The notes under the pieces were generated by a model that did not search any database, was not told where the DNA came from, and saw nothing but the letters and a program-made list of their open reading frames with translations. Positions 33,527 through 39,214 of a stretch of DNA of 39,214 nucleotides are shown in pieces (the stretch's first letter is position 1; each line of letters starts with the position of its first letter). A program made the translations under genes and the position numbers. The stretch lies in the IMG/VR virus record IMGVR_UViG_2541047122_000029, one strand, 5' to 3'. The stretch comes from a virus (lineage: Duplodnaviria; Heunggongvirae; Uroviricota; Caudoviricetes).

Positions 33527-34087
33527 ATGCTGATTGGCTATATACGCGTATCAACAAATGACCAGAACACAGGTTTACAAAGAAATGCGCTGGAATGTGC
33601 AGGATGTGAGCAGATTTTTGAAGACAAAATGAGTGGTAAAACGACACAGCGGCCGGGACTGAAGCGGGCACTGAAGAAACTAAAACCCGGTGACACGCTG
33701 ATGGTCTGGAAACTGGACAGGCTGGGGCGCAGTATGCGCCACCTTGTTGCGCTGACAGATGAATTACAGCAACAGGGGATAAATTTTCGTAGTTTTACTG
33801 ACAACATTGATACGTCAACCCCCATGGGGCGCTTCTTTTTTCACATAATGGGTGCGCTGGCAGAAATGGAGCGTGAATTAATTGTCGAACGGACACGGGC
33901 TGGTCTTGCAGCTGCCCGTGAAAGGGGACGAACCGGCGGCAGACCCCGCCGTCTCACGCAGGAACAATACGAGCAGGTCGGGCGTTTACTGGCCGGGGGT
34001 GTCAGTCGAAGACAGGTGGCACTTATTTTTGATATCGGTCTTTCAACCCTTTATCGTTATTATCCTGCGAGCGTTTCGGAAAAATAA
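33527..34087 (+). CDS. gin: Gin/Hin/Cin-family serine DNA invertase
   Basis: 186 aa; resolvase-type catalytic N-terminus MLIGYIRVSTNDQNTGLQ (catalytic Ser), C-terminal HTH; RBS AAGGAAGG upstream. Confidence 0.9.
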   Translation: MLIGYIRVSTNDQNTGLQRNALECAGCEQIFEDKMSGKTTQRPGLKRALKKLKPGDTLMVWKLDRLGRSMRHLVALTDELQQQGINFRSFTDNIDTSTPMGRFFFHIMGALAEMERELIVERTRAGLAAARERGRTGGRPRRLTQEQYEQVGRLLAGGVSRRQVALIFDIGLSTLYRYYPASVSEK

Positions 34088-34186: not shown

Positions 34187-36226
34187 ATGACGTCCAAATG
34201 GGTTCAACTATCATCAATGCCCGGAAACTTTACTGTTAAAGTTTCCGGTGGTACAGCGGCATTTCTTGAGGCTCCCTTTCCTCCGGCCGAAACAAAAGGA
34301 GGAATGACATTTGCTGACTGTCTCATCAGTTTTAATACACGGGATTGCCTGTGGGTAAGGCCAGTATCCGGTGATCCGAGTGTGGAAATTACCGGAGCGG
34401 GTATTGGTGCGGTCATTCCGTTAAGTGCTGATGTTGCCGGTACTGCTGAACCGTCAGACTGGGATAATGCTGAAACACATACCCGTCCGTCAGGAAATGA
34501 AACTGCTTCCAGCTCCCCTTCCTGGTATTACGTGGTGGTTCTTGCTGGTCAGTCAAACGGTATGGCTTACGGTGAAGGTCTGCCACTGCCGGAGACATAT
34601 GACCGCCCCGAACCGCGTATTATGCAGTTAGCCCGTCGCAGTACAGTCACGCCGGGAGGTAAAGCCTGTCAGTATAACGACATCATTCTGGCCGACCACT
34701 GTCTGCATGATGTGCAGGATATGAGTGGAAAAAATCACCCGAAAGCGGATGTGGCTAAAGGGCAATATGGCACCGTGGGTCAGGGGCTTCACATTGCCAA
34801 AAAACTGCTGCCGTTTATTCCGGCAGATGCGGGGATTCTGCTGGTTCCCTGCTGCCGTGGTGGTTCTGCATTCACGGCGGGTGCTGACGGCACGTACAGT
34901 GACAGCACGGGTGCTTCAGAGGACTCAGCCCGCTGGGGTGTGGATAAGCCGCTGTATAAGGACTTAATCAGCCGGACAAAAGCGGCACTGGCGAAGAACC
35001 CGAAAAACCGCCTGCTTGCTGTGGTGTGGATGCAGGGCGAGTTTGATATTGATGCGAAGCCGACGGAGCATTCTGCGCTGTTTCTGGCGATGGTGGAAAA
35101 ATTCCGCGCAGACCTGGCTGAACAGGCGGAACAGTGTACCGGTGGCAGTGCTGCTGGCGTTCCGTGGATTTGTGGTGATACCACGTATTTCTGGAAACAG
35201 AAAAACGAACAGGCATACCAGGCAATCTATGACGGCTACAAAAATAAAACAGATAAAAACATTCATTTCGTCCCATTAATGACAGATGAAAATGGCGCGA
35301 ATGTACCCACCAACAATCCGGCAGAAGACCCGGATATTGAATCCATTGGTTATTACGGCTCAACGTGGCGTAACAGTGCCGCCACCTGGACATCTACGGA
35401 CCGGGCCAGCCATTTCAGTTCATGGGCACGTCGTGGGATTATTTCCGACCGTCTGGCCACGGCAGTTCTGACTCATGCGGGGCGAACCACAGTAAAAGCC
35501 GATGTTCCATCTTCTGAAACTGAAGCACCAGTGCCGTCACCTTCAGAAACTGAAGCAGTAACCACAACACTGCTGTCTTACCGTGTCAGTGAGTCAGAAG
35601 GAAATCTGAAAGCCCAGGGCTGGGAGCCGGCTGGCGGTAAAGCTGAAATTATCAGTGATGCAGGAGGCACAGGTGGTAAGGCAATGAAACTGACCAAGGA
35701 AACAGGTAAATCATCCTGGTATCTGGATCATGATGCCGGTACTGGTGCTGAACTGCTGAAAAATGGTGGTTTAATCAGTTGTCGTTTTAAAGTACCGGGC
35801 GACCTGGTGGCAAACCAGTATGTCATGGCGCTTTACTGGCCGGTTTCCTCTCTGCCGCAGGGTGTCACCCTGACAGGGGATGCAGGGAATAATCTGCTGG
35901 CATCGTTCTACATCCAGACAGACGCAAAAGACCTGAATGTGATGTACCACAATGCAAAAGTGGCAACAAATAACCAGAAACTGGGAACCTTTGGTGCATT
36001 TGATAATGAATGGCATACGCTGGCCTTCCGTTTTGCAGGAAATAACAGCCTTCAGGTTATTCCGGTTATTGATGGTCAGGATGGTGCCGCGTTTACCCTG
36101 ACGCAGTCACCAGTAGGAACTTTCCCGGTGGACAAACTCCGCGTAACGGATATCACAAAAAATGCAACTTACCCGGTGCTGATTGACAGCATTGTGGTGG
36201 AAGTGAAAAAAGCGGTAACAGAATAA
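34187..36226 (+). CDS. Multidomain SGNH/SASA-type carbohydrate esterase with Pro/Ser/Thr/Glu-rich linker and C-terminal lectin-like domain (cargo gene)
   Basis: 679 aa; AGQSNGMAYGEG (catalytic-Ser GQSN block), WMQGEFD and DRASHF motifs match sialate O-acetylesterase-type domains as recalled; linker PSSETEAPVPSPSETEA; no N-terminal signal peptide; sits between gin and com/mom, where Mu has no gene. Confidence 0.75.
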   Translation: MTSKWVQLSSMPGNFTVKVSGGTAAFLEAPFPPAETKGGMTFADCLISFNTRDCLWVRPVSGDPSVEITGAGIGAVIPLSADVAGTAEPSDWDNAETHTRPSGNETASSSPSWYYVVVLAGQSNGMAYGEGLPLPETYDRPEPRIMQLARRSTVTPGGKACQYNDIILADHCLHDVQDMSGKNHPKADVAKGQYGTVGQGLHIAKKLLPFIPADAGILLVPCCRGGSAFTAGADGTYSDSTGASEDSARWGVDKPLYKDLISRTKAALAKNPKNRLLAVVWMQGEFDIDAKPTEHSALFLAMVEKFRADLAEQAEQCTGGSAAGVPWICGDTTYFWKQKNEQAYQAIYDGYKNKTDKNIHFVPLMTDENGANVPTNNPAEDPDIESIGYYGSTWRNSAATWTSTDRASHFSSWARRGIISDRLATAVLTHAGRTTVKADVPSSETEAPVPSPSETEAVTTTLLSYRVSESEGNLKAQGWEPAGGKAEIISDAGGTGGKAMKLTKETGKSSWYLDHDAGTGAELLKNGGLISCRFKVPGDLVANQYVMALYWPVSSLPQGVTLTGDAGNNLLASFYIQTDAKDLNVMYHNAKVATNNQKLGTFGAFDNEWHTLAFRFAGNNSLQVIPVIDGQDGAAFTLTQSPVGTFPVDKLRVTDITKNATYPVLIDSIVVEVKKAVTE

Positions 36227-36231
36227 AAAAA

Positions 36232-36260
36232 TCCCGCCGGTCATGATATGGCTGGCGGGA
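36232..36260. other. Stem-loop immediately downstream of the esterase gene
   Basis: TCCCGCC (36232-36238) / GGCGGGA (36254-36260); preceded by A7 (36224-36230), so it reads as hairpin plus U-run on the minus strand; no U-tract after it on the + strand. Confidence 0.4.
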
Positions 36261-36372
36261 GCTACCTAACCCATAAAGGAAAATAAAAATACTCCCGAAG
36301 GAGTGGTTATCAGTCGCTTCGATGTTTTTACCCGATAACGAATTATGTAGTCAATATCAAAGGTAAGGTTAT

Positions 36373-36555
36373 ATGACATTCGTTCATACAATGCTGCTTT
36401 ATTTCTGCGCAGTGGTCAGTGCGTTATATCTGGTGAGCGGCGGTTATAAGGTCATCAGAAATTATATTCGCCGTAAAATTGATGATGCGGCAGCTGAAAA
36501 ACTCAGTAAAACAGCACAGGCACCGTCATCCCCAAACGACCCGACCCCGCTCTGA
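36373..36555 (+). CDS. Small single-pass membrane protein (cargo, unknown function)
   Basis: 60 aa; TM helix MLLYFCAVVSALYLVSGGY then charged tail; RBS AAGGTAAGG upstream. Confidence 0.55.
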   Translation: MTFVHTMLLYFCAVVSALYLVSGGYKVIRNYIRRKIDDAAAEKLSKTAQAPSSPNDPTPL

Positions 36556-36590
36556 TAACGGGGCAATATACCTGCAAAAGGAGAATATTC

Positions 36591-36836
36591 ATGCCAGAGA
36601 TTAAAGGCACGGTTACTGAAGAGCTTGTCAAACAGGCACTTTATTCTGAAGAAGTGAACCGCGTGCTGAAGGCGCAGGTTCGCAAGGATTTTGAGGCACA
36701 AATCGACGCATATGTTGATGAAGTGCTGGCCCGAATGGTTGGCCATTCTCCGGCTGAAAACAGCACGGAGAATGAGCCTCAAGCCGTAGAGCAACCAGAG
36801 CCGGTTCAGCCCGGAACTGACGGTACTATGATGTAA
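36591..36836 (+). CDS. Small acidic helical protein (cargo, unknown function)
   Basis: 81 aa; RBS AAAGGAG 8 nt upstream of ATG; followed by a clean terminator. Confidence 0.65.
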   Translation: MPEIKGTVTEELVKQALYSEEVNRVLKAQVRKDFEAQIDAYVDEVLARMVGHSPAENSTENEPQAVEQPEPVQPGTDGTMM

Positions 36837-36845
36837 CAATACCGA

Positions 36846-36876
36846 CCGGCAGGTTTCCCTGCCGGGTGAATTTGTT
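36846..36876 (+). terminator. Rho-independent terminator after the small two-gene cassette
   Basis: CCGGCAGG (36846-36853) / CCTGCCGG (36858-36865), loop TTTC, then GTGAATTTGTT. Confidence 0.7.
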
Positions 36877-37045
36877 AATGCACGTTTTGTGTACTTTCCC
36901 TCCGGGGAGAACAGGCAGGACATATCAGCATCCTGAAACAGGACGCATTTTGGGGTTTGTATGTCTTGCCATTTTGAGATCGAGAACGGCGATAGATGAG
37001 CTGTAAGGGAGTCTTACAGGCAGGGCAAACAGGCTCTTTATCCAT
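36875..37045 (-). CDS. Possible small zinc-ribbon protein, divergent from com/mom (low confidence)
   Basis: Minus-strand 56-aa ORF MDKEPVCPACKTPLQ...CPACSPRRE with two CPAC pairs; AAGGAG 9 nt upstream of ATG at 37045; track ORF 36875-37069 starts 8 codons earlier. Confidence 0.3.
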   Translation of the reverse strand: MDKEPVCPACKTPLQLIYRRSRSQNGKTYKPQNASCFRMLICPACSPRRESTQNVH

Positions 37046-37139
37046 GATAAAGATCTCCTTTTTATGCATCTCTGCTTTACAGGAGACCGGGGAATATCAT
37101 AGGATACGACACGAGCTCGAAGTAAAGCATTGATGCGAA

Positions 37140-37410
37140 TTTGTTCCAGGTCCAGATAGCTGTAACTATCTGGACCTCCCTTTATGTAGTATCCTGTTGA
37201 TTTGAAACATACTACATATACGCGCGATCCTACCTTCACTGTATAAAAAGTCAATAAAATGATCATTTTATGATCGTTTTCACCACCTAAGTCTTCGTTT
37301 TCTTTAAGTAAATAATCACCGCCCTGAATCATTGTTGATGACTTTTCAATCTATTTGTTGTATCAATTAAACAAATCGAATCGATCGTTTTTGTCGATCG
37401 ATTGCATGAG
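37140..37410. promoter_or_regulatory. com/mom upstream control region (palindromes plus GATC cluster, likely Dam-methylation-sensitive promoter)
   Basis: AT-rich. 12-bp inverted repeat AGGTCCAGATAG (37148-37159) / CTATCTGGACCT (37166-37177); 9-bp inverted repeat ATGTAGTAT (37184-37192) / ATACTACAT (37209-37217); GATC at 37226, 37261, 37272, 37383, 37396. Confidence 0.6.
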
Positions 37411-37446
37411 AAAGGCATCAACAACAAAGCAGGAGGTTATGCGGCC

Positions 37447-37647
37447 ATGTATCGAAACATACGGTGCCGACACTGCAATAAGCTACTGGCACGGGCCAGT
37501 TTCAGTTATCTGGAAGTAAAATGTCCGCGCTGTAAAACCCTCAATCAAATCACATCTCCGAGCGCCACAGAGCACCCCACATACACAAGGAAATCCTGTC
37601 GTGGGGAACAGAAAGCAAGTCACATCCCGTATCATCAGCACGCCTGA
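37447..37647 (+). CDS. com: Com-like zinc-finger translational activator of mom
   Basis: ATG 37447 (RBS AGGAGG) inside track ORF 37402-37647; [13 protein letters not shown]...[12 protein letters not shown] matches Mu Com (IRCKNCNKLLFKA...IRCPRCKRH) as I recall it; overlaps the next gene. Confidence 0.75.
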
Positions 37648-38338
37648 ACTTATTCGCTATAACGACAATATCGTTGGTTATGGCTCCCGTGAGTTGCGGG
37701 TTGAGACAATAAGTTGCTGGCTGGCCAGACTGGTCATCGTCAATAAACATTACAGCCACCGTTTCGTAAATAACTCCTACCTTCATCTGGGCATATTTTC
37801 AGAACGGGAGCTGGTTGGCGTAATGCAATGGGGCTATGCCCTTAATCCAAACAGTGGTGCACGCGTCGTAACGGGCACGCGGAACCGTGAATATATGGAG
37901 CTTAACCGGTTATGGCTGCATGACTGTATGCCGAGAAACTCCGAATCAAGGGCAATCAGTTACGCGCTCAAGCTAATCAGGCAGCTTTATCCGCAGGTAC
38001 AGTGGGTTCAGTCGTTTGCAGATGAGCGTTGTGGCTGTCTTGGTGTCGTGTATCAGGCAAGCAATTTTGATTATGTAGGCAGCCACGAATCAACATTCTA
38101 TGAACTTGATGGCGAGTGGTATCACGAGATTTGCAGGAATGCCATTAAACGAGGCGGACAGCGAGGTGAACATCTGAGGGCTAATATCGACAGAGCCAGT
38201 GTTCATAAATTCCGTCAGTTTCGTTACATCCGGTTTCTGAACAAGAGGGCCAGAAAACGCCTCAACACAAAGCTATTCAAAGTCCAGCCTTACCCAAAAC
38301 CACAAACAGTTAAAACTGGTTTAAAAGAGAGTGAGTGA
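37601..38338 (+). CDS. mom: Mom-like DNA modification protein (anti-restriction)
   Basis: 245-aa ORF overlapping the end of com; ...[16 protein letters not shown]...[23 protein letters not shown] resembles Mu Mom as I recall it. Start uncertain (GTG 37601 in track). Confidence 0.75.
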
Positions 38339-38375
38339 ACGCTTAAAAACTCATTCTAAAACCCAAAAGAAAAGC

Positions 38376-38416
38376 GCCGATTTAGTATCAAATAAGTTGC
38401 GTATCGGCGTTTTTCA
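38376..38416 (+). terminator. Terminator-like hairpin downstream of mom
   Basis: CGCCGAT (38376-38382) / ATCGGCG (38403-38409) with a large 20-nt loop, then TTTTTCAG. Confidence 0.35.
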
Positions 38417-38449
38417 GCGGTATCAAATGAAATGCAAATCGGTATCAAA
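38384..38449. repeat. Three direct copies of RGTATCAAA in the region after mom (candidate end-binding sites; prophage right terminus not resolved)
   Basis: AGTATCAAA 38384-38392, GGTATCAAA 38419-38427, GGTATCAAA 38441-38449. Confidence 0.3.
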
Positions 38450-38920
38450 AAAATCGCCGCGCTATAGGCTTTTGCTGAGTTACAAAGGCGAATTCTGGAT
38501 AATCAACAGACAGGGAGTGCGCAATCTGATGCAGCATTGCTCTGGAGTTTTTGGAACTCTTACTCTGCAGATGAACTGGTCGATGACTTAGTCATTCGCT
38601 GTGGTCTGGAAAGCGCCGTTGAAATCGTCCTTTTTGCCCTTCAACTCAAATATAAACCAGTAAAAGGCGCAGTAACCACCATCATTCCACCTAATCACGA
38701 AGCAGAATCGCTACCTAGTTAGCATCAACGTCTATGTCATCATCTTTCACTCGCTTCAGAAGATGAGTGGCAACGCTGTGTAGATAAAGTACTCACCGCC
38801 ATTCCGACGCTATCCCCCGCACGGCAACCTTTTGCGGCGTTACTGCTCCCTGAACGCCCGGATATCGCCCATGCTATAGATCTACGCTATGCAGACCAAA
38901 ACGTCCCGGCGATGACCTGG

Positions 38921-39214
38921 TGAACCGCCCCGGGTTTCCTGGAGAGTGTTTTATCTGTGAACTCAGGCTGCCAGATCATCGTTTCCGATGGAAGCATAAT
39001 AAGCTTTTTCTGCTTCTGCCGGAGGAGTATGGCCCAGCCTTCCCAGCAATCGTCGATTGTTATACCAGTCCACCCACGTTAGTGTGGCCAGTTCCACTTC
39101 TGCACGGTTTTTCCAGCTCTTACGGTGTATTACCTCCGCTTTGTAAAGACCATTGATGCTCTCAGCCATCGCGTTGTCATACGAGTCGCCTGTACTCCCT
39201 GTTGATGCCAGTAA
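38921..39214 (-). mobile_element. IS3-family insertion sequence, partial (continues past window end)
   Basis: Terminal sequence TGAACCGCCCCGGGTTTCCTGGAGAGTG from 38921; minus-strand transposase 3' end lies 42 bp inside it. Confidence 0.8.
38963..39214 (-). CDS. IS3-family transposase OrfB, C-terminal fragment (5' part outside window)
   Basis: Minus-strand frame open to the window edge: ...GDSYDNAMAESINGLYKAEVIHRKSW..., matching the DDE-integrase C-terminal block of IS3-family OrfB; stop at 38963-38965. Confidence 0.8.
   Translation of the reverse strand, partial: LLASTGSTGDSYDNAMAESINGLYKAEVIHRKSWKNRAEVELATLTWVDWYNNRRLLGRLGHTPPAEAEKAYYASIGNDDLAA

What the first reader, a model, noticed from the sequence alone, without database searches (positions are those of the whole stretch)
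36875..37217. Possible divergent zinc-ribbon ORF and a 30-bp perfect palindrome
On the minus strand a 56-aa ORF with two CPAC pairs and an AAGGAG RBS points away from com/mom. Upstream of it lie a perfect 12-bp inverted repeat with 6-bp spacer (37148-37177) and a 9-bp inverted repeat (37184-37217). Palindromes of this length in an AT-rich promoter region are typical operators for dimeric regulators; the ORF could be that regulator or could be spurious.
Basis: seen in the sequence. Interest (0 to 1): 0.45.

Follow-up and report, generated by a model that had tools for sequence, protein, structure and literature searches.

The report
Structured leader of small prophage gene
The ORF looks like a real, uncharacterised 56-residue zinc-ribbon gene of a Mu-like prophage that databases record as a broken 154-residue pseudogene, and the two palindromes most likely form hairpins in its mRNA leader, not repressor binding sites.

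Summary
The window is a Mu-like (Sp18-type) E. coli prophage. RefSeq annotates 36875-37332(-) as a frameshifted 154-aa pseudogene, but comparison contradicts that. Only the 56-aa zinc-ribbon frame shows purifying selection. A 45-47% identical stand-alone 52-53-aa homologue sits at the same place, divergent from com, in Salmonella Mu-like prophages. In other relatives two unrelated ORFs take over the same start region.

Upstream lies a sigma70-like promoter. Its hexamers, 16-nt spacing and distance to the first palindrome are conserved, while the spacer sequence is not. Both palindromes therefore fall in the predicted ~175-nt transcribed leader.

The 30-bp palindrome (HP2) exists as 13 sequence variants that all keep a stem of at least 9 bp and a 6-nt loop. 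Six of nine pairs change on both sides. It occurs once or as two tandem copies.

Consensus folding favours the ORF-sense strand, with G·U versus A·C asymmetry. The leader's 3' 110 nt are better conserved than com, mom or the ORF.

There is no Rfam, Pfam, PADLOC or PDB match. The function of protein and leader is unknown. No transcript data were found, so transcription is inferred.

The parts
36875..37045 (-). 56-aa basic zinc-ribbon ORF (CPAC...CPAC, pI 9.7), including the TAA stop. This is the probable real gene.
   Evidence: dN/dS about 0.2 in this frame only. (Salmonella homologues of 52-53 aa in the same synteny; MDKE, CPxC, GKTYxP and CPxCSP conserved). (pI).
37055..37060 (-). Shine-Dalgarno AAGGAG, 9 nt before the ATG.
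   Evidence: Identical in the E. coli and Salmonella leaders.
37035..37053 (-). HP4: an 8-bp hairpin UCUUUAUC-AUG-GAUAAAGA with the start codon in its loop.
   Evidence: The only change is C to U, which keeps a U·G pair. HP4 is absent from loci with other cargo ORFs.
37081..37088 (-). GGUCUCCU: the 3' strand of the inner stem of HP3, and also complementary to the SD (a possible anti-SD).
   Evidence: Cognate anti-SD/SD duplexes are -13 to -15 kcal/mol; non-cognate combinations with cargo 3 are -4 to -9. This is an inference.
37066..37136 (-). HP3: a long-range stem (GCAUCAAUGCUUUAC / GUAAAGCAGAGAUGC) that encloses inner stems.
   Evidence: Three pairs change on both sides (100/172, 127/147, 128/146). 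One position is broken in 2 of 8 leaders.
37077..37130 (-). 17-codon upstream ORF (MLYFELVSYPMIFPGLL*) that ends just after the anti-SD. Whether it is coding is uncertain.
   Evidence: Read from the sequence. The frame is kept in all variants, but there is no SD and no low dN/dS.
37148..37177 (-). HP2: the 30-bp perfect palindrome. It is a stem-loop with variable sequence and conserved structure (allele A).
   Evidence: 13 sequence variants, one or two tandem copies. (117 of 117 cells paired; 6 of 9 pairs with changes on both sides; 0 of 500 shuffles reach this).
37183..37218 (-). HP1: a 10-bp stem with a 16-nt loop, starting a few nt after the predicted transcription start.
   Evidence: The lower stem is invariant. 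The loop has four different sequences of the same length. The upper stem covaries (21/32 GC to UA) and one pair changes A·U to G·U.
37227..37254 (-). Predicted sigma70 promoter TTGACT-16-TAGGAT, with a predicted start near 37220. A GATC overlaps the -10.
   Evidence: three sequence families (TTGACT/TAGGAT, TTGACT/TAAGAT, TTGACG/TATAAT), always with a 16-nt spacer and 6-8 nt to HP1, while the spacer sequences are unrelated.
37076..37105 (+). Promoter-like site on the plus strand, TTTACA-18-TAGGAT. It could give an antisense RNA that ends at HP2.
   Evidence: By my reading of the variants, the hexamers and spacing are conserved with a variable spacer.
36846..36865 (.). GC-rich hairpin CCGGCAGG-TTTC-CCTGCCGG between the convergent DUF826 gene and the zinc-ribbon ORF. 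It looks like a terminator with weak T-runs on both sides.
   Evidence: The tool's terminator rule does not flag it. The Salmonella homologue has a canonical terminator at the same place.
36875..37332 (-). Span that RefSeq annotates as a 'frameshifted' 154-aa hypothetical pseudogene. The 1-bp difference from the 'intact' allele lies between 37039 and 37040.
   Evidence: The upstream two thirds show no frame-specific constraint, and frameshifts and stops occur in several lineages.

Best explanation
The region is a small leftward transcription unit, a 'moron', inserted next to the com-mom control region of a Mu-like prophage. It consists of a sigma70 promoter at 37254-37227, a leader of about 175 nt, the 56-aa zinc-ribbon gene at 37045-36875, and a terminator-like hairpin.

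The two palindromes are RNA stem-loops in that leader, read on the window's minus strand.
- HP1 (37218-37183) sits at the very 5' end of the predicted transcript. It probably protects the transcript, as 5'-terminal hairpins do.
- HP2 (37177-37148) is a modular hairpin selected for its shape: a stem of 9-12 bp with a 6-nt loop, in one or two copies. Its partner or role is unknown. A stabilising barrier or a binding site for an RNA-binding factor is the most likely role.
- Downstream, HP3 and a hairpin holding the AUG (HP4), with a CUCCU element able to pair with the SD, probably limit translation of the cargo.

Shown:
- The sequence features exist.
- The promoter signature is conserved.
- The pairs covary.
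- Pairing favours the ORF-sense strand.
- The ORF is under coding constraint and keeps its synteny.
- The cargo ORF has been exchanged in relatives.

Inferred:
- That the unit is transcribed, and where transcription starts.
- The role of each hairpin.
- That translation is controlled.
- What the protein does.
For: 1. Promoter. The hexamers, the 16-nt spacing and the 6-8 nt distance to HP1 are conserved in three otherwise unrelated sequence families from E. coli and Salmonella.
2. HP2. There are 13 sequence variants. All 117 cells pair, 6 of 9 pairs change on both sides, and 0 of 500 shuffles reach this. Six cells are G·U and none is A·C.
3. Whole leader, RNAalifold on 8 diverse leaders. Fifty-one pairs, 98% of cells paired against 94.0 +/- 0.7 in shuffles, 7 pairs with changes on both sides, covariation score 0.172 against 0.093 (0 of 500).
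4. Strand test, each strand folded on its own. The sense strand gives -43.3 kcal/mol, and 10 variable pairs use G·U against 1 with A·C. The antisense strand gives -38.4 kcal/mol, 1 against 6.
5. Conservation. The leader is better conserved than its neighbours between E. coli and Salmonella. Its 3' 110 nt are about 89% identical (my count), the whole leader is 80%, mom 76%, com 75%, and the ORF is only 45% identical in amino acids. At blastn level only the leader aligns.
6. Gene reality. dN/dS in the ORF frame; stand-alone Salmonella homologues with the same SD and AUG context and a canonical terminator. The 68-aa replacement ORF also shows coding constraint, 17 synonymous against 12 non-synonymous sites, P = 3e-5.
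7. Moron character. Mu itself has nothing here, because gin abuts Pmom. The GC content is low. In close relatives the whole unit is replaced by another leftward gene.
Against: - No transcript, start-site or ribosome data were found. A search of the supplements of a Sakai ribosome-profiling paper for this ORF found nothing.
- On the closely related E. coli set plus one Salmonella leader, covariation outside HP2 was not significant.
- The HP2 set was curated by hand: bulges were removed and stems trimmed to 9 bp.
- The tool itself warns that related sequences can beat the shuffles without any structure.
- HP3 has an uncompensated mismatch in 2 of 8 leaders.
- The loop of the window's HP2 allele looks inverted relative to the other alleles. 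That argues against a loop-specific RNA function.
- A plus-strand promoter-like site is conserved just as well (my reading).
- In some Salmonella loci the HP2 units follow an upstream ORF instead of the promoter and HP1. HP2 therefore does not depend on this promoter.
- Several E. coli lineages carry damaging changes in the ORF: C7Y, truncation, and a shifted start.
Confidence: 0.55

Rival explanations
1. DNA operators. HP2 and/or HP1 are dyad-symmetric binding sites for a dimeric regulator of the leftward promoter or of com-mom. Their sequences differ between phages because the regulator's specificity differs.
For: - The dyads are perfect, in an AT-rich control region next to the heavily regulated mom promoter (PMC3378877).
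- The inner half-sites (T)AG-N6-CT(A) and the 6-bp spacer length are invariant in all HP2 variants.
- Symmetric co-variation of the arms is also what operators of changed specificity would show.
- The apparently inverted loop in allele A would not matter for a DNA site.
Against: - Both sites lie downstream of the conserved promoter.
- Common alleles have a 1-nt bulge in one arm only (C, D, H, I).
- All the mismatches are G·T on the ORF-sense strand and none is A·C.
- A 1-bp insertion in both arms (allele B) changes the half-site geometry.
- There is no second copy anywhere in the prophage.
- HP2 alleles are shuffled among otherwise similar phages and are duplicated in tandem.
- The palindromes persist where the zinc-ribbon ORF is absent.
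Confidence: 0.1
2. Rightward terminator or insulator, possibly the 3' end of a cis-antisense RNA. A plus-strand promoter (TTTACA-18-TAGGAT, 37076-37105) makes an RNA of about 70 nt antisense to the leader that stops at HP2. Alternatively, HP2 and HP1 simply stop rightward read-through before it reaches the toxic com-mom operon. This could coexist with the sense-leader model.
For: - The scan flags HP2 as terminator-like on the plus strand (stem followed by CCCTTTATGT) and finds the plus-strand promoter.
- The hexamers and 18-nt spacing of that promoter are conserved with a variable spacer in E. coli and Salmonella variants (my reading).
- Untimely mom expression is cytotoxic and is guarded by many layers of control (PMC3378877).
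Against: - The T-run is short (3-4 T) and separated from the stem by 3-6 nt in most alleles.
- Second-copy hairpins with three G·U pairs would be A·C mismatches in a plus-strand RNA.
- Consensus folding and wobble asymmetry favour the minus strand.
- HP2 units also occur in loci where com is not the next gene on that side.
Confidence: 0.15
3. RefSeq's reading. The real gene is the 154-aa ORF, the window carries a frameshifted pseudogene, and the palindromes are incidental coding sequence.
For: An uninterrupted 154-aa ORF exists in some strains (WP_115801860.1). Its 90% cluster has 205 member sequences. The length difference at HP2 between alleles A and B is 6 nt, which keeps the frame.
Against: - The upstream 149 nt give dN/dS of 0.58, 0.64 and 0.57 in the three frames, so no frame is preferred.
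- Frameshifts and stops occur in the upstream part in several lineages (L008/L009, L020/L031), and other reading frames appear among the database proteins.
- The ORF's ATG (37332) lies upstream of the conserved promoter.
- Salmonella homologues are stand-alone proteins of 52-53 aa.
- The 'intact' form differs only by one extra G that fuses the frames.
- The same upstream DNA precedes unrelated ORFs.
Confidence: 0.04
4. Mutational by-product. HP2 is a quasi-palindrome kept perfect by template-switch ('quasipalindrome correction') and by recombination, without any function.
For: - Several alleles are perfect palindromes.
- There are signs of loop inversion: allele A's UUACAG is the reverse complement of CUGGAA with 1 mismatch.
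- Tandem duplication and deletion occur, and hairpins and tails are mosaic.
Against: - The hairpin persists across the E. coli-Salmonella divergence. Over that divergence the unconstrained neighbours (promoter spacer, HP1 loop) have been fully randomised.
- Loop length and the closing pairs are invariant.
- G·U pairs and bulges are tolerated rather than 'corrected'.
Confidence: 0.06

Closest known systems
Phage 'morons' (promoter-gene-terminator units inserted between conserved phage genes)
   Same: It has its own sigma70-like promoter and a terminator-type hairpin. It sits between conserved modules and is absent from phage Mu at this position. Its GC content is lower than the phage's. The whole unit or its ORF is exchanged between close relatives.
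   Different: It has an unusually long leader that is better conserved than the gene it precedes and is reused with at least three unrelated ORFs.
Mu com-mom translational control (Com zinc finger, six-nucleotide-loop hairpin and translation-inhibition stem)
   Same: It is the immediate neighbour. It also involves a small Cys4 zinc protein. The start region is caught in a hairpin. Its hairpins have 6-nt loops, and Mu Com binds short hairpins with six-residue loops (PMC6483171).
   Different: The protein is not in the Com family: there is no PF10122 hit, and the CxxC pairs are 31 residues apart against 16. The Com motif CC-N2-3-GAG is not present in the HP2 loops. Only a GAGNNCC half-motif occurs at the base of HP2, and only in some alleles.
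Divergent promoter momP2 of phage Mu
   Same: It is a leftward promoter in the mom upstream region, pointing away from com-mom (PMC3378877).
   Different: momP2 overlaps Pmom and has no known product. The promoter here lies about 190 bp from the com ATG, beyond the GATC cluster, and precedes a gene.
5'-terminal stabilising stem-loops (ompA type) and REP/BIME intercistronic hairpins (my own knowledge)
   Same: HP1 starts within a few nt of the predicted 5' end. HP2 is a GC-rich hairpin without a U-tract that occurs in a variable number of tandem copies in transcribed intergenic DNA, in some loci right after the stop codon of an upstream ORF.
   Different: There is no sequence similarity to REP. 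The copies are confined to this one locus of Mu-like prophages. A stabilising effect has not been tested.
SD-sequestering leaders and leader-peptide attenuators (ermC type)
   Same: A CUCCU element 25 nt upstream can pair with the SD. A short upstream ORF ends right on that element. The AUG sits in a hairpin loop.
   Different: The upstream ORF has no SD and shows no coding signal. The consensus fold places the CUCCU element inside HP3 rather than on the SD. No inducer is known.

Membership tests
Com family zinc ribbon (Pfam PF10122) | Match to the family profile | tested here: not met
   PF10122 does not appear among the Pfam hits for the 56-aa ORF or for P0032, even at E = 0.1 to 1. The neighbouring com gene carries it.
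Com family zinc ribbon (Pfam PF10122) | CxxC-N16-CxxC spacing | tested here: not met
   The ORF has C7/C10 and C42/C45, 31 residues between the pairs. In Com the pairs are 16 residues apart.
Intrinsic (Rho-independent) terminator, for HP2 | GC-rich stem followed directly by a U-tract | tested here: inconclusive
   On the minus strand no U-tract follows the stem. On the plus strand it is borderline (CCCTTTATGT), and the lenient scan flags it. In other alleles the T-run lies 3-6 nt from the stem.
Palindromic operator of a dimeric regulator | Half-site sequence conserved among relatives that share the regulator, with symmetric geometry | tested here: not met
   The arms differ at 6 of 9 positions among variants. 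There are single-arm bulges and a 1-bp insertion in both arms. Only the inner AG/CT and the 6-bp spacer are constant.
Palindromic operator of a dimeric regulator | Placed at or upstream of the promoter, often with several sites | tested here: not met
   Both palindromes lie downstream of the conserved -10. There are no further copies in the window.
Palindromic operator of a dimeric regulator | A protein binds the double-stranded site | not testable with these tools
   This needs EMSA or footprinting.
Phage moron | Own promoter and terminator flanking an ORF that is not needed by the core phage | tested here: met
   Conserved promoter signature. Canonical terminator in Salmonella, weaker hairpin in the window. 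The unit is absent from Mu and replaced in close relatives. Transcription is predicted, not observed.
Structured cis-acting mRNA leader | Secondary structure conserved through compensatory changes on the transcribed strand | tested here: met
   Caveats: few, related sequences, and a hand-curated HP2 set.
Structured cis-acting mRNA leader | The structure changes expression of the downstream gene | not testable with these tools
   This needs reporter fusions with disruptive and compensatory mutations.
154-aa protein-coding gene (RefSeq WP_115801860.1 family) | Reading frame and coding constraint maintained over the full length | tested here: not met
Type I toxin-antitoxin locus | Small hydrophobic toxin with a cis-antisense RNA to its structured 5' UTR | tested here: inconclusive
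   The product is basic and not hydrophobic (pI 9.7). An antisense promoter-like site exists, but no antisense RNA has been shown.
Any Rfam family | Covariance-model match | tested here: not met
   For 36300-38500 on both strands, all matches have E of at least 0.37 and score far below the gathering thresholds.

The most novel reading that the evidence does not exclude
The leader is a portable RNA control cassette: promoter, 5' hairpin, one or two shape-selected hairpins with 6-nt loops, and an SD-masking element. Mu-like prophages would place it in front of interchangeable cargo genes. Its HP2-type hairpins would be bound by a trans-acting RNA-binding protein. The obvious candidate is the adjacent Com zinc finger, which is known to bind hairpins with six-residue loops. 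Translation of the leftward cargo would then be coupled to the com-mom late switch, extending the set of genes Com controls beyond mom.
Probability: 0.08. Interest if true: 0.7.

Novelty: new variant of a known kind. Interest (0 to 1): 0.45.

Why it matters
- Annotation. A few percent of complete E. coli genomes carry this locus (217-233 of 5,426, mostly Shiga-toxin-producing strains, plus many Salmonella). In every RefSeq locus I opened except one it is marked as a broken pseudogene. The evidence points instead to a small zinc-ribbon gene with a conserved leader that no database describes.
- Biology. The leader's 3' part is better conserved than com, mom and its own cargo, shows compensatory evolution, and is reused with at least three unrelated ORFs. 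It is therefore a candidate new cis-regulatory RNA of temperate phages. It sits next to one of the most elaborately controlled phage operons.
- Limits. This is a narrow family with no known phenotype.

Tried and rejected
- Known-family searches on the protein. Pfam, PHROGs and PADLOC gave only sub-threshold generic zinc-ribbon hits. A PDB profile search gave nothing meaningful.
- Structure. A single-sequence AlphaFold model had pLDDT 69 and showed a two-strand ribbon. Foldseek against the PDB gave no hit with E below 2.
- Exhaustive phmmer against 1.84 billion representative proteins found only 4 clusters.
- Rfam on both strands gave nothing.
- Scans of one genome per species, with the protein and with the HP1 pattern, found nothing. 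The family is therefore narrow.
- Antisense pairing of the leader with the 5' part of the com-mom mRNA was not better than shuffles: -80.6 against -74.3 +/- 5.3 kcal/mol (one search timed out).
- The first covariation count, on mostly E. coli leaders, was not significant: 67 of 500 shuffles reached it. Single-sequence sense and antisense fold energies were not discriminating. The Salmonella variants were needed.
- The Com-binding motif in the leader is represented only by a GAGNNCC half-site in alleles A, E and G.
- Literature searches for transcript or ribosome evidence on Sp18 found nothing usable.
- Rejected: HP2 as a gix/hix, dif or attC-type recombination site. The geometry or the partner enzyme does not fit. 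This rests on my own knowledge, with no test beyond the sequence.
- Rejected: a retron or type III toxin-antitoxin repeat. There is no reverse transcriptase or ToxN-like gene nearby.
Full report
OBSERVATION

The window is a Mu-like prophage: transposase genes A and B at the left, and gin, com and mom at the right. The finding region is 100% identical to E. coli O157:H7 strain F7508. Close relatives occur in 217-233 of 5,426 complete E. coli genomes and in two Stx-phage records that carry an inserted Mu-like phage.

- The minus-strand ORF runs 37045..36875, 56 aa, with two CPAC pairs. AAGGAG lies 9 nt upstream of the ATG.
- The perfect 12-6-12 palindrome is at 37148-37177. I call it HP2.
- The second inverted repeat is really 10 bp per arm, at 37183-37218. 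I call it HP1.
- Such repeats are far above chance. Perfect 12-bp inverted repeats occur twice in the window against 0.06 expected. Repeats of at least 9 bp in 36800-37500 number 8 against 0.07 expected.
- The 193-nt stretch folds with z = -6.3.
- The region is AT-rich, 36-41% GC against 53% for the window.

THE ANNOTATION IS MISLEADING

RefSeq marks 36875-37332(-) as a 'frameshifted' hypothetical pseudogene. An uninterrupted 154-aa form exists in other strains. The two forms differ by one G, ATGGAT(G)AAAGAG, between 37039 and 37040. On RefSeq's reading the 56-aa ORF is a fragment and the palindromes are coding sequence. Comparative data argue against that.

- The 149 nt upstream part shows no frame-specific constraint. 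dN/dS is 0.58, 0.64 and 0.57 in the three frames. The zinc-ribbon frame has 7 synonymous against 5 non-synonymous variant sites, dN/dS about 0.20 and P = 0.007, while the other frames give 1.56 and 0.58.
- The upstream part carries frameshifts or stops in several lineages, and database proteins read it in several frames.
- An exhaustive phmmer search found one distant relative. It is a stand-alone 53-aa protein, 45-47% identical, and is abundant in Salmonella enterica. It lies at the same place, divergent from com and about 390 bp away. It is followed by a canonical terminator.
- MDKE, CPxC, GKTYxP and CPxCSP are conserved across 17 family members.
- In other E. coli prophages the same upstream DNA precedes an unrelated 68-aa ORF that begins at the same ATGGATAAA. 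That ORF is itself under coding constraint, with 17 synonymous against 12 non-synonymous sites, P = 3e-5.
- In two viral contigs (L081, L083), whose Com is about 75% identical to the window's, a third ORF of about 100 aa replaces the 5' part of the zinc-ribbon ORF.

PROMOTER AND POSITION OF THE PALINDROMES

The scan finds TTGACT-16-TAGGAT at 37254-37227 on the minus strand. Across 21 distinct variants the region falls into three sequence families: TTGACT/TAGGAT, TTGACT/TAAGAT and TTGACG/TATAAT. The spacer sequences are unrelated, but the spacer is always 16 nt and HP1 always starts 6-8 nt after the -10.

That is the signature of a working sigma70 promoter. It places the start near 37220, so HP1 and HP2 lie at about +3 to +38 and +44 to +73 of the transcript. 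This is an inference; I found no transcript data.

The ATG of the 154-aa ORF (37332) lies upstream of this promoter.

HP2

HP2 is the only strongly divergent stretch between otherwise 97-99% identical alleles, and every allele is again a hairpin.

I collected 13 sequence variants from E. coli and Salmonella prophages. Examples:
- AGGTCCAGATAG-TTACAG-CTATCTGGACCT (the window)
- ACCCAGCATAG-CTGGAA-CTATGCTGGGT
- GACCCGGTAG-GTGGAA-CTACCGGGTC
- GCCCGGCAG-TGCGAC-CTGCCGGGC
- GATCTGGTAG-GTGAGA-CTACCGGGTT

After removing single bulges and trimming to 9 bp, all 117 cells pair. Six of nine pairs change on both sides, and 0 of 500 shuffles reach this. The loop is always 6 nt and the two closing pairs never vary. 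Six cells are G·U on the ORF-sense strand and none is A·C.

HP2 occurs once, or as two tandem units of about 80 bp. Hairpins and tails are shuffled between loci. The window's loop, UUACAG, is the reverse complement of the common CUGGAA with one mismatch, which suggests a loop inversion.

In some Salmonella loci the units follow an upstream ORF instead of the promoter and HP1.

THE WHOLE LEADER

RNAalifold on eight diverse single-unit leaders recovers four elements: HP1, HP2, HP3 and HP4.
- HP3 is a long-range stem, 37066-37136, with inner stems.
- HP4 is an 8-bp hairpin with the AUG in its loop, 37035-37053.
- There are 51 pairs. Ninety-eight percent of cells pair, against 94.0 +/- 0.7 in shuffles. 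Seven pairs change on both sides. The covariation score is 0.172 against 0.093 (0 of 500), and the slid controls are 0.058 or less.

I then folded each strand on its own.
- Sense strand: -43.3 kcal/mol, with 10 variable pairs using G·U and 1 with A·C.
- Antisense strand: -38.4 kcal/mol, with 1 and 6.

This asymmetry is the best available evidence that the pairing matters in an RNA of the window's minus strand, rather than in duplex DNA or a plus-strand RNA.

An earlier count on mostly E. coli leaders was not significant. The sample is small and the sequences are related, so I treat the result as good but not conclusive.

CONSERVATION

Between the window and a Salmonella prophage:
- mom is 76% identical at the nucleotide level and com 75%.
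- The zinc-ribbon ORF aligns over only 57% of its length and is 45% identical in amino acids.
- The leader is 80% identical over its full length, and about 89% over the 110 nt between HP2 and the AUG (my count).

At blastn level only the leader aligns. The leader's 3' part, not the ORF, is the most constrained part of the unit.

TRANSLATION

GGUCUCCU (37088-37081) is complementary to the SD region. In loci with the third cargo the element reads CCUCAU and matches that cargo's SD (GUGAGG). Cognate duplexes are -13 to -15 kcal/mol, and non-cognate combinations with cargo 3 are -4 to -9. This rests on one evolutionary event. In the consensus fold the element is the 3' strand of HP3's inner stem, so SD masking is only a plausible alternative conformation.

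A 17-codon upstream ORF (37130..37077) ends right after this element and keeps its frame in all variants. It has no SD and no coding signal.

WHAT IT IS NOT

- Neither palindrome recurs in the prophage.
- The leader has no second copy in the window.
- There is no Rfam match.
- The protein has no Pfam, PHROG, PADLOC or PDB relative. A modest AlphaFold model (pLDDT 69) shows only a generic two-strand zinc ribbon.
- It is not in the Com family.
- Phage Mu has no counterpart, because gin abuts the mom promoter there. Mu is, however, known to have a divergent promoter, momP2 (PMC3378877).
- In some close relatives the whole leftward unit is replaced by another leftward gene. The unit therefore behaves as a moron.

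RIVALS

- A DNA operator is disfavoured by the position of the sites, the single-arm bulges, the wobble asymmetry, the lack of other sites, and the persistence of the palindromes without the zinc-ribbon ORF.
- A plus-strand terminator or antisense RNA remains possible. TTTACA-18-TAGGAT at 37076-37105 is conserved in the same hexamers-and-spacing manner, and the scan flags HP2 as terminator-like. However, the T-run is weak and the wobble pairs point to the other strand. This could coexist with the leader model.
- Template-switch mutation can explain how the arms stay complementary, but not why the hairpin outlives fully randomised neighbours.

VERDICT

The ORF is a real, unannotated small gene. 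The palindromes are most likely transcribed stem-loops of a conserved, modular leader, not operators. The functions of the leader and the protein are unknown. This is a new variant of a known kind, a moron with a structured regulatory leader, and it is of moderate interest.

Noticed in passing
window 37560-37606 (+): The com-mom mRNA carries a perfect match to the bipartite Mu Com SELEX motif GAGNNCC-N3-GAGNNCC (GAGCGCC ACA GAGCACC). It lies directly 5' of a CCCCAC/GTGGGG stem that contains mom's GTG start. This is a Mu-type translation-inhibition structure, although this Com is only 44% identical to Mu Com (PMC6483171).
   Followed up: partly
whole window: The heptamer GAGNNCC, the Com half-motif, is about two-fold depleted on both strands: 31 matches against 69 +/- 8 in shuffles. 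The cause is unknown; codon usage was not checked.
   Followed up: no
window 37379-37403: A perfect 9-7-9 palindrome, AATCGATCG-N7-CGATCGATT, with GATC sites. It aligns with Mu's Dam/OxyR GATC cluster upstream of Pmom. It lies only about 45 nt from the com ATG, so the promoter layout must differ from Mu's.
   Followed up: partly
window 37226, 37261, 37272, 37052: GATC sites overlap the -10 of the leftward promoter, lie just upstream of its -35 within an AAAATGATCATTTT palindrome, and abut the SD. The leftward unit may be sensitive to Dam methylation, like mom.
   Followed up: no
window 34187-36836: A module typical of lambdoid Stx phages sits between gin (33527-34087) and com: a 679-aa sialate-O-acetylesterase-like protein (SASA + DUF6645), DUF1378 and DUF826.
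   Followed up: partly
L014-L016, L020, L080-L082, L138-L142, L152: The HP2 unit of about 80 bp is tandemly duplicated in many relatives. In some Salmonella loci the promoter and HP1 are replaced by a 51-aa ORF (MNTDKQKNEE...TDTT) or by a 123-aa gene whose 3' end abuts the first hairpin. The 51-aa ORF ends at the TAA of the ACATAAAGGG motif.
   Followed up: partly
L063, L067-L074 (com at 1501): In prophages whose Com is 97% identical, the whole leftward unit is replaced, at the junction ...ACAACAAATA, by a different leftward gene of about 100 aa (MDNHVTTRNRKMIEN...). The left flank of the com control region is thus a cargo-exchange hotspot.
   Followed up: no
L056, L057 and other loci with the 68-aa cargo: PGAP annotates a 66-aa ORF on the opposite strand (WP_001536755.1, MDKNKKQPDTKGLE...). 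Its 3' end overlaps the unannotated 68-aa ORF by about 38 nt. The 68-aa frame shows clear coding constraint.
   Followed up: partly
window 38963-39169 (-): A fragment of what looks, from my own knowledge of the motifs, like an IS3-family transposase C-terminus lies at the right edge of the window, beyond mom. The flank differs from strain F7508, where garL follows mom.
   Followed up: no
window 34221-34248 and 85-116: Two other perfect inverted repeats. One is 12 bp with a 4-nt spacer at the start of the esterase gene. The other is 11 bp with a 10-nt spacer near the left edge of the window.
   Followed up: no
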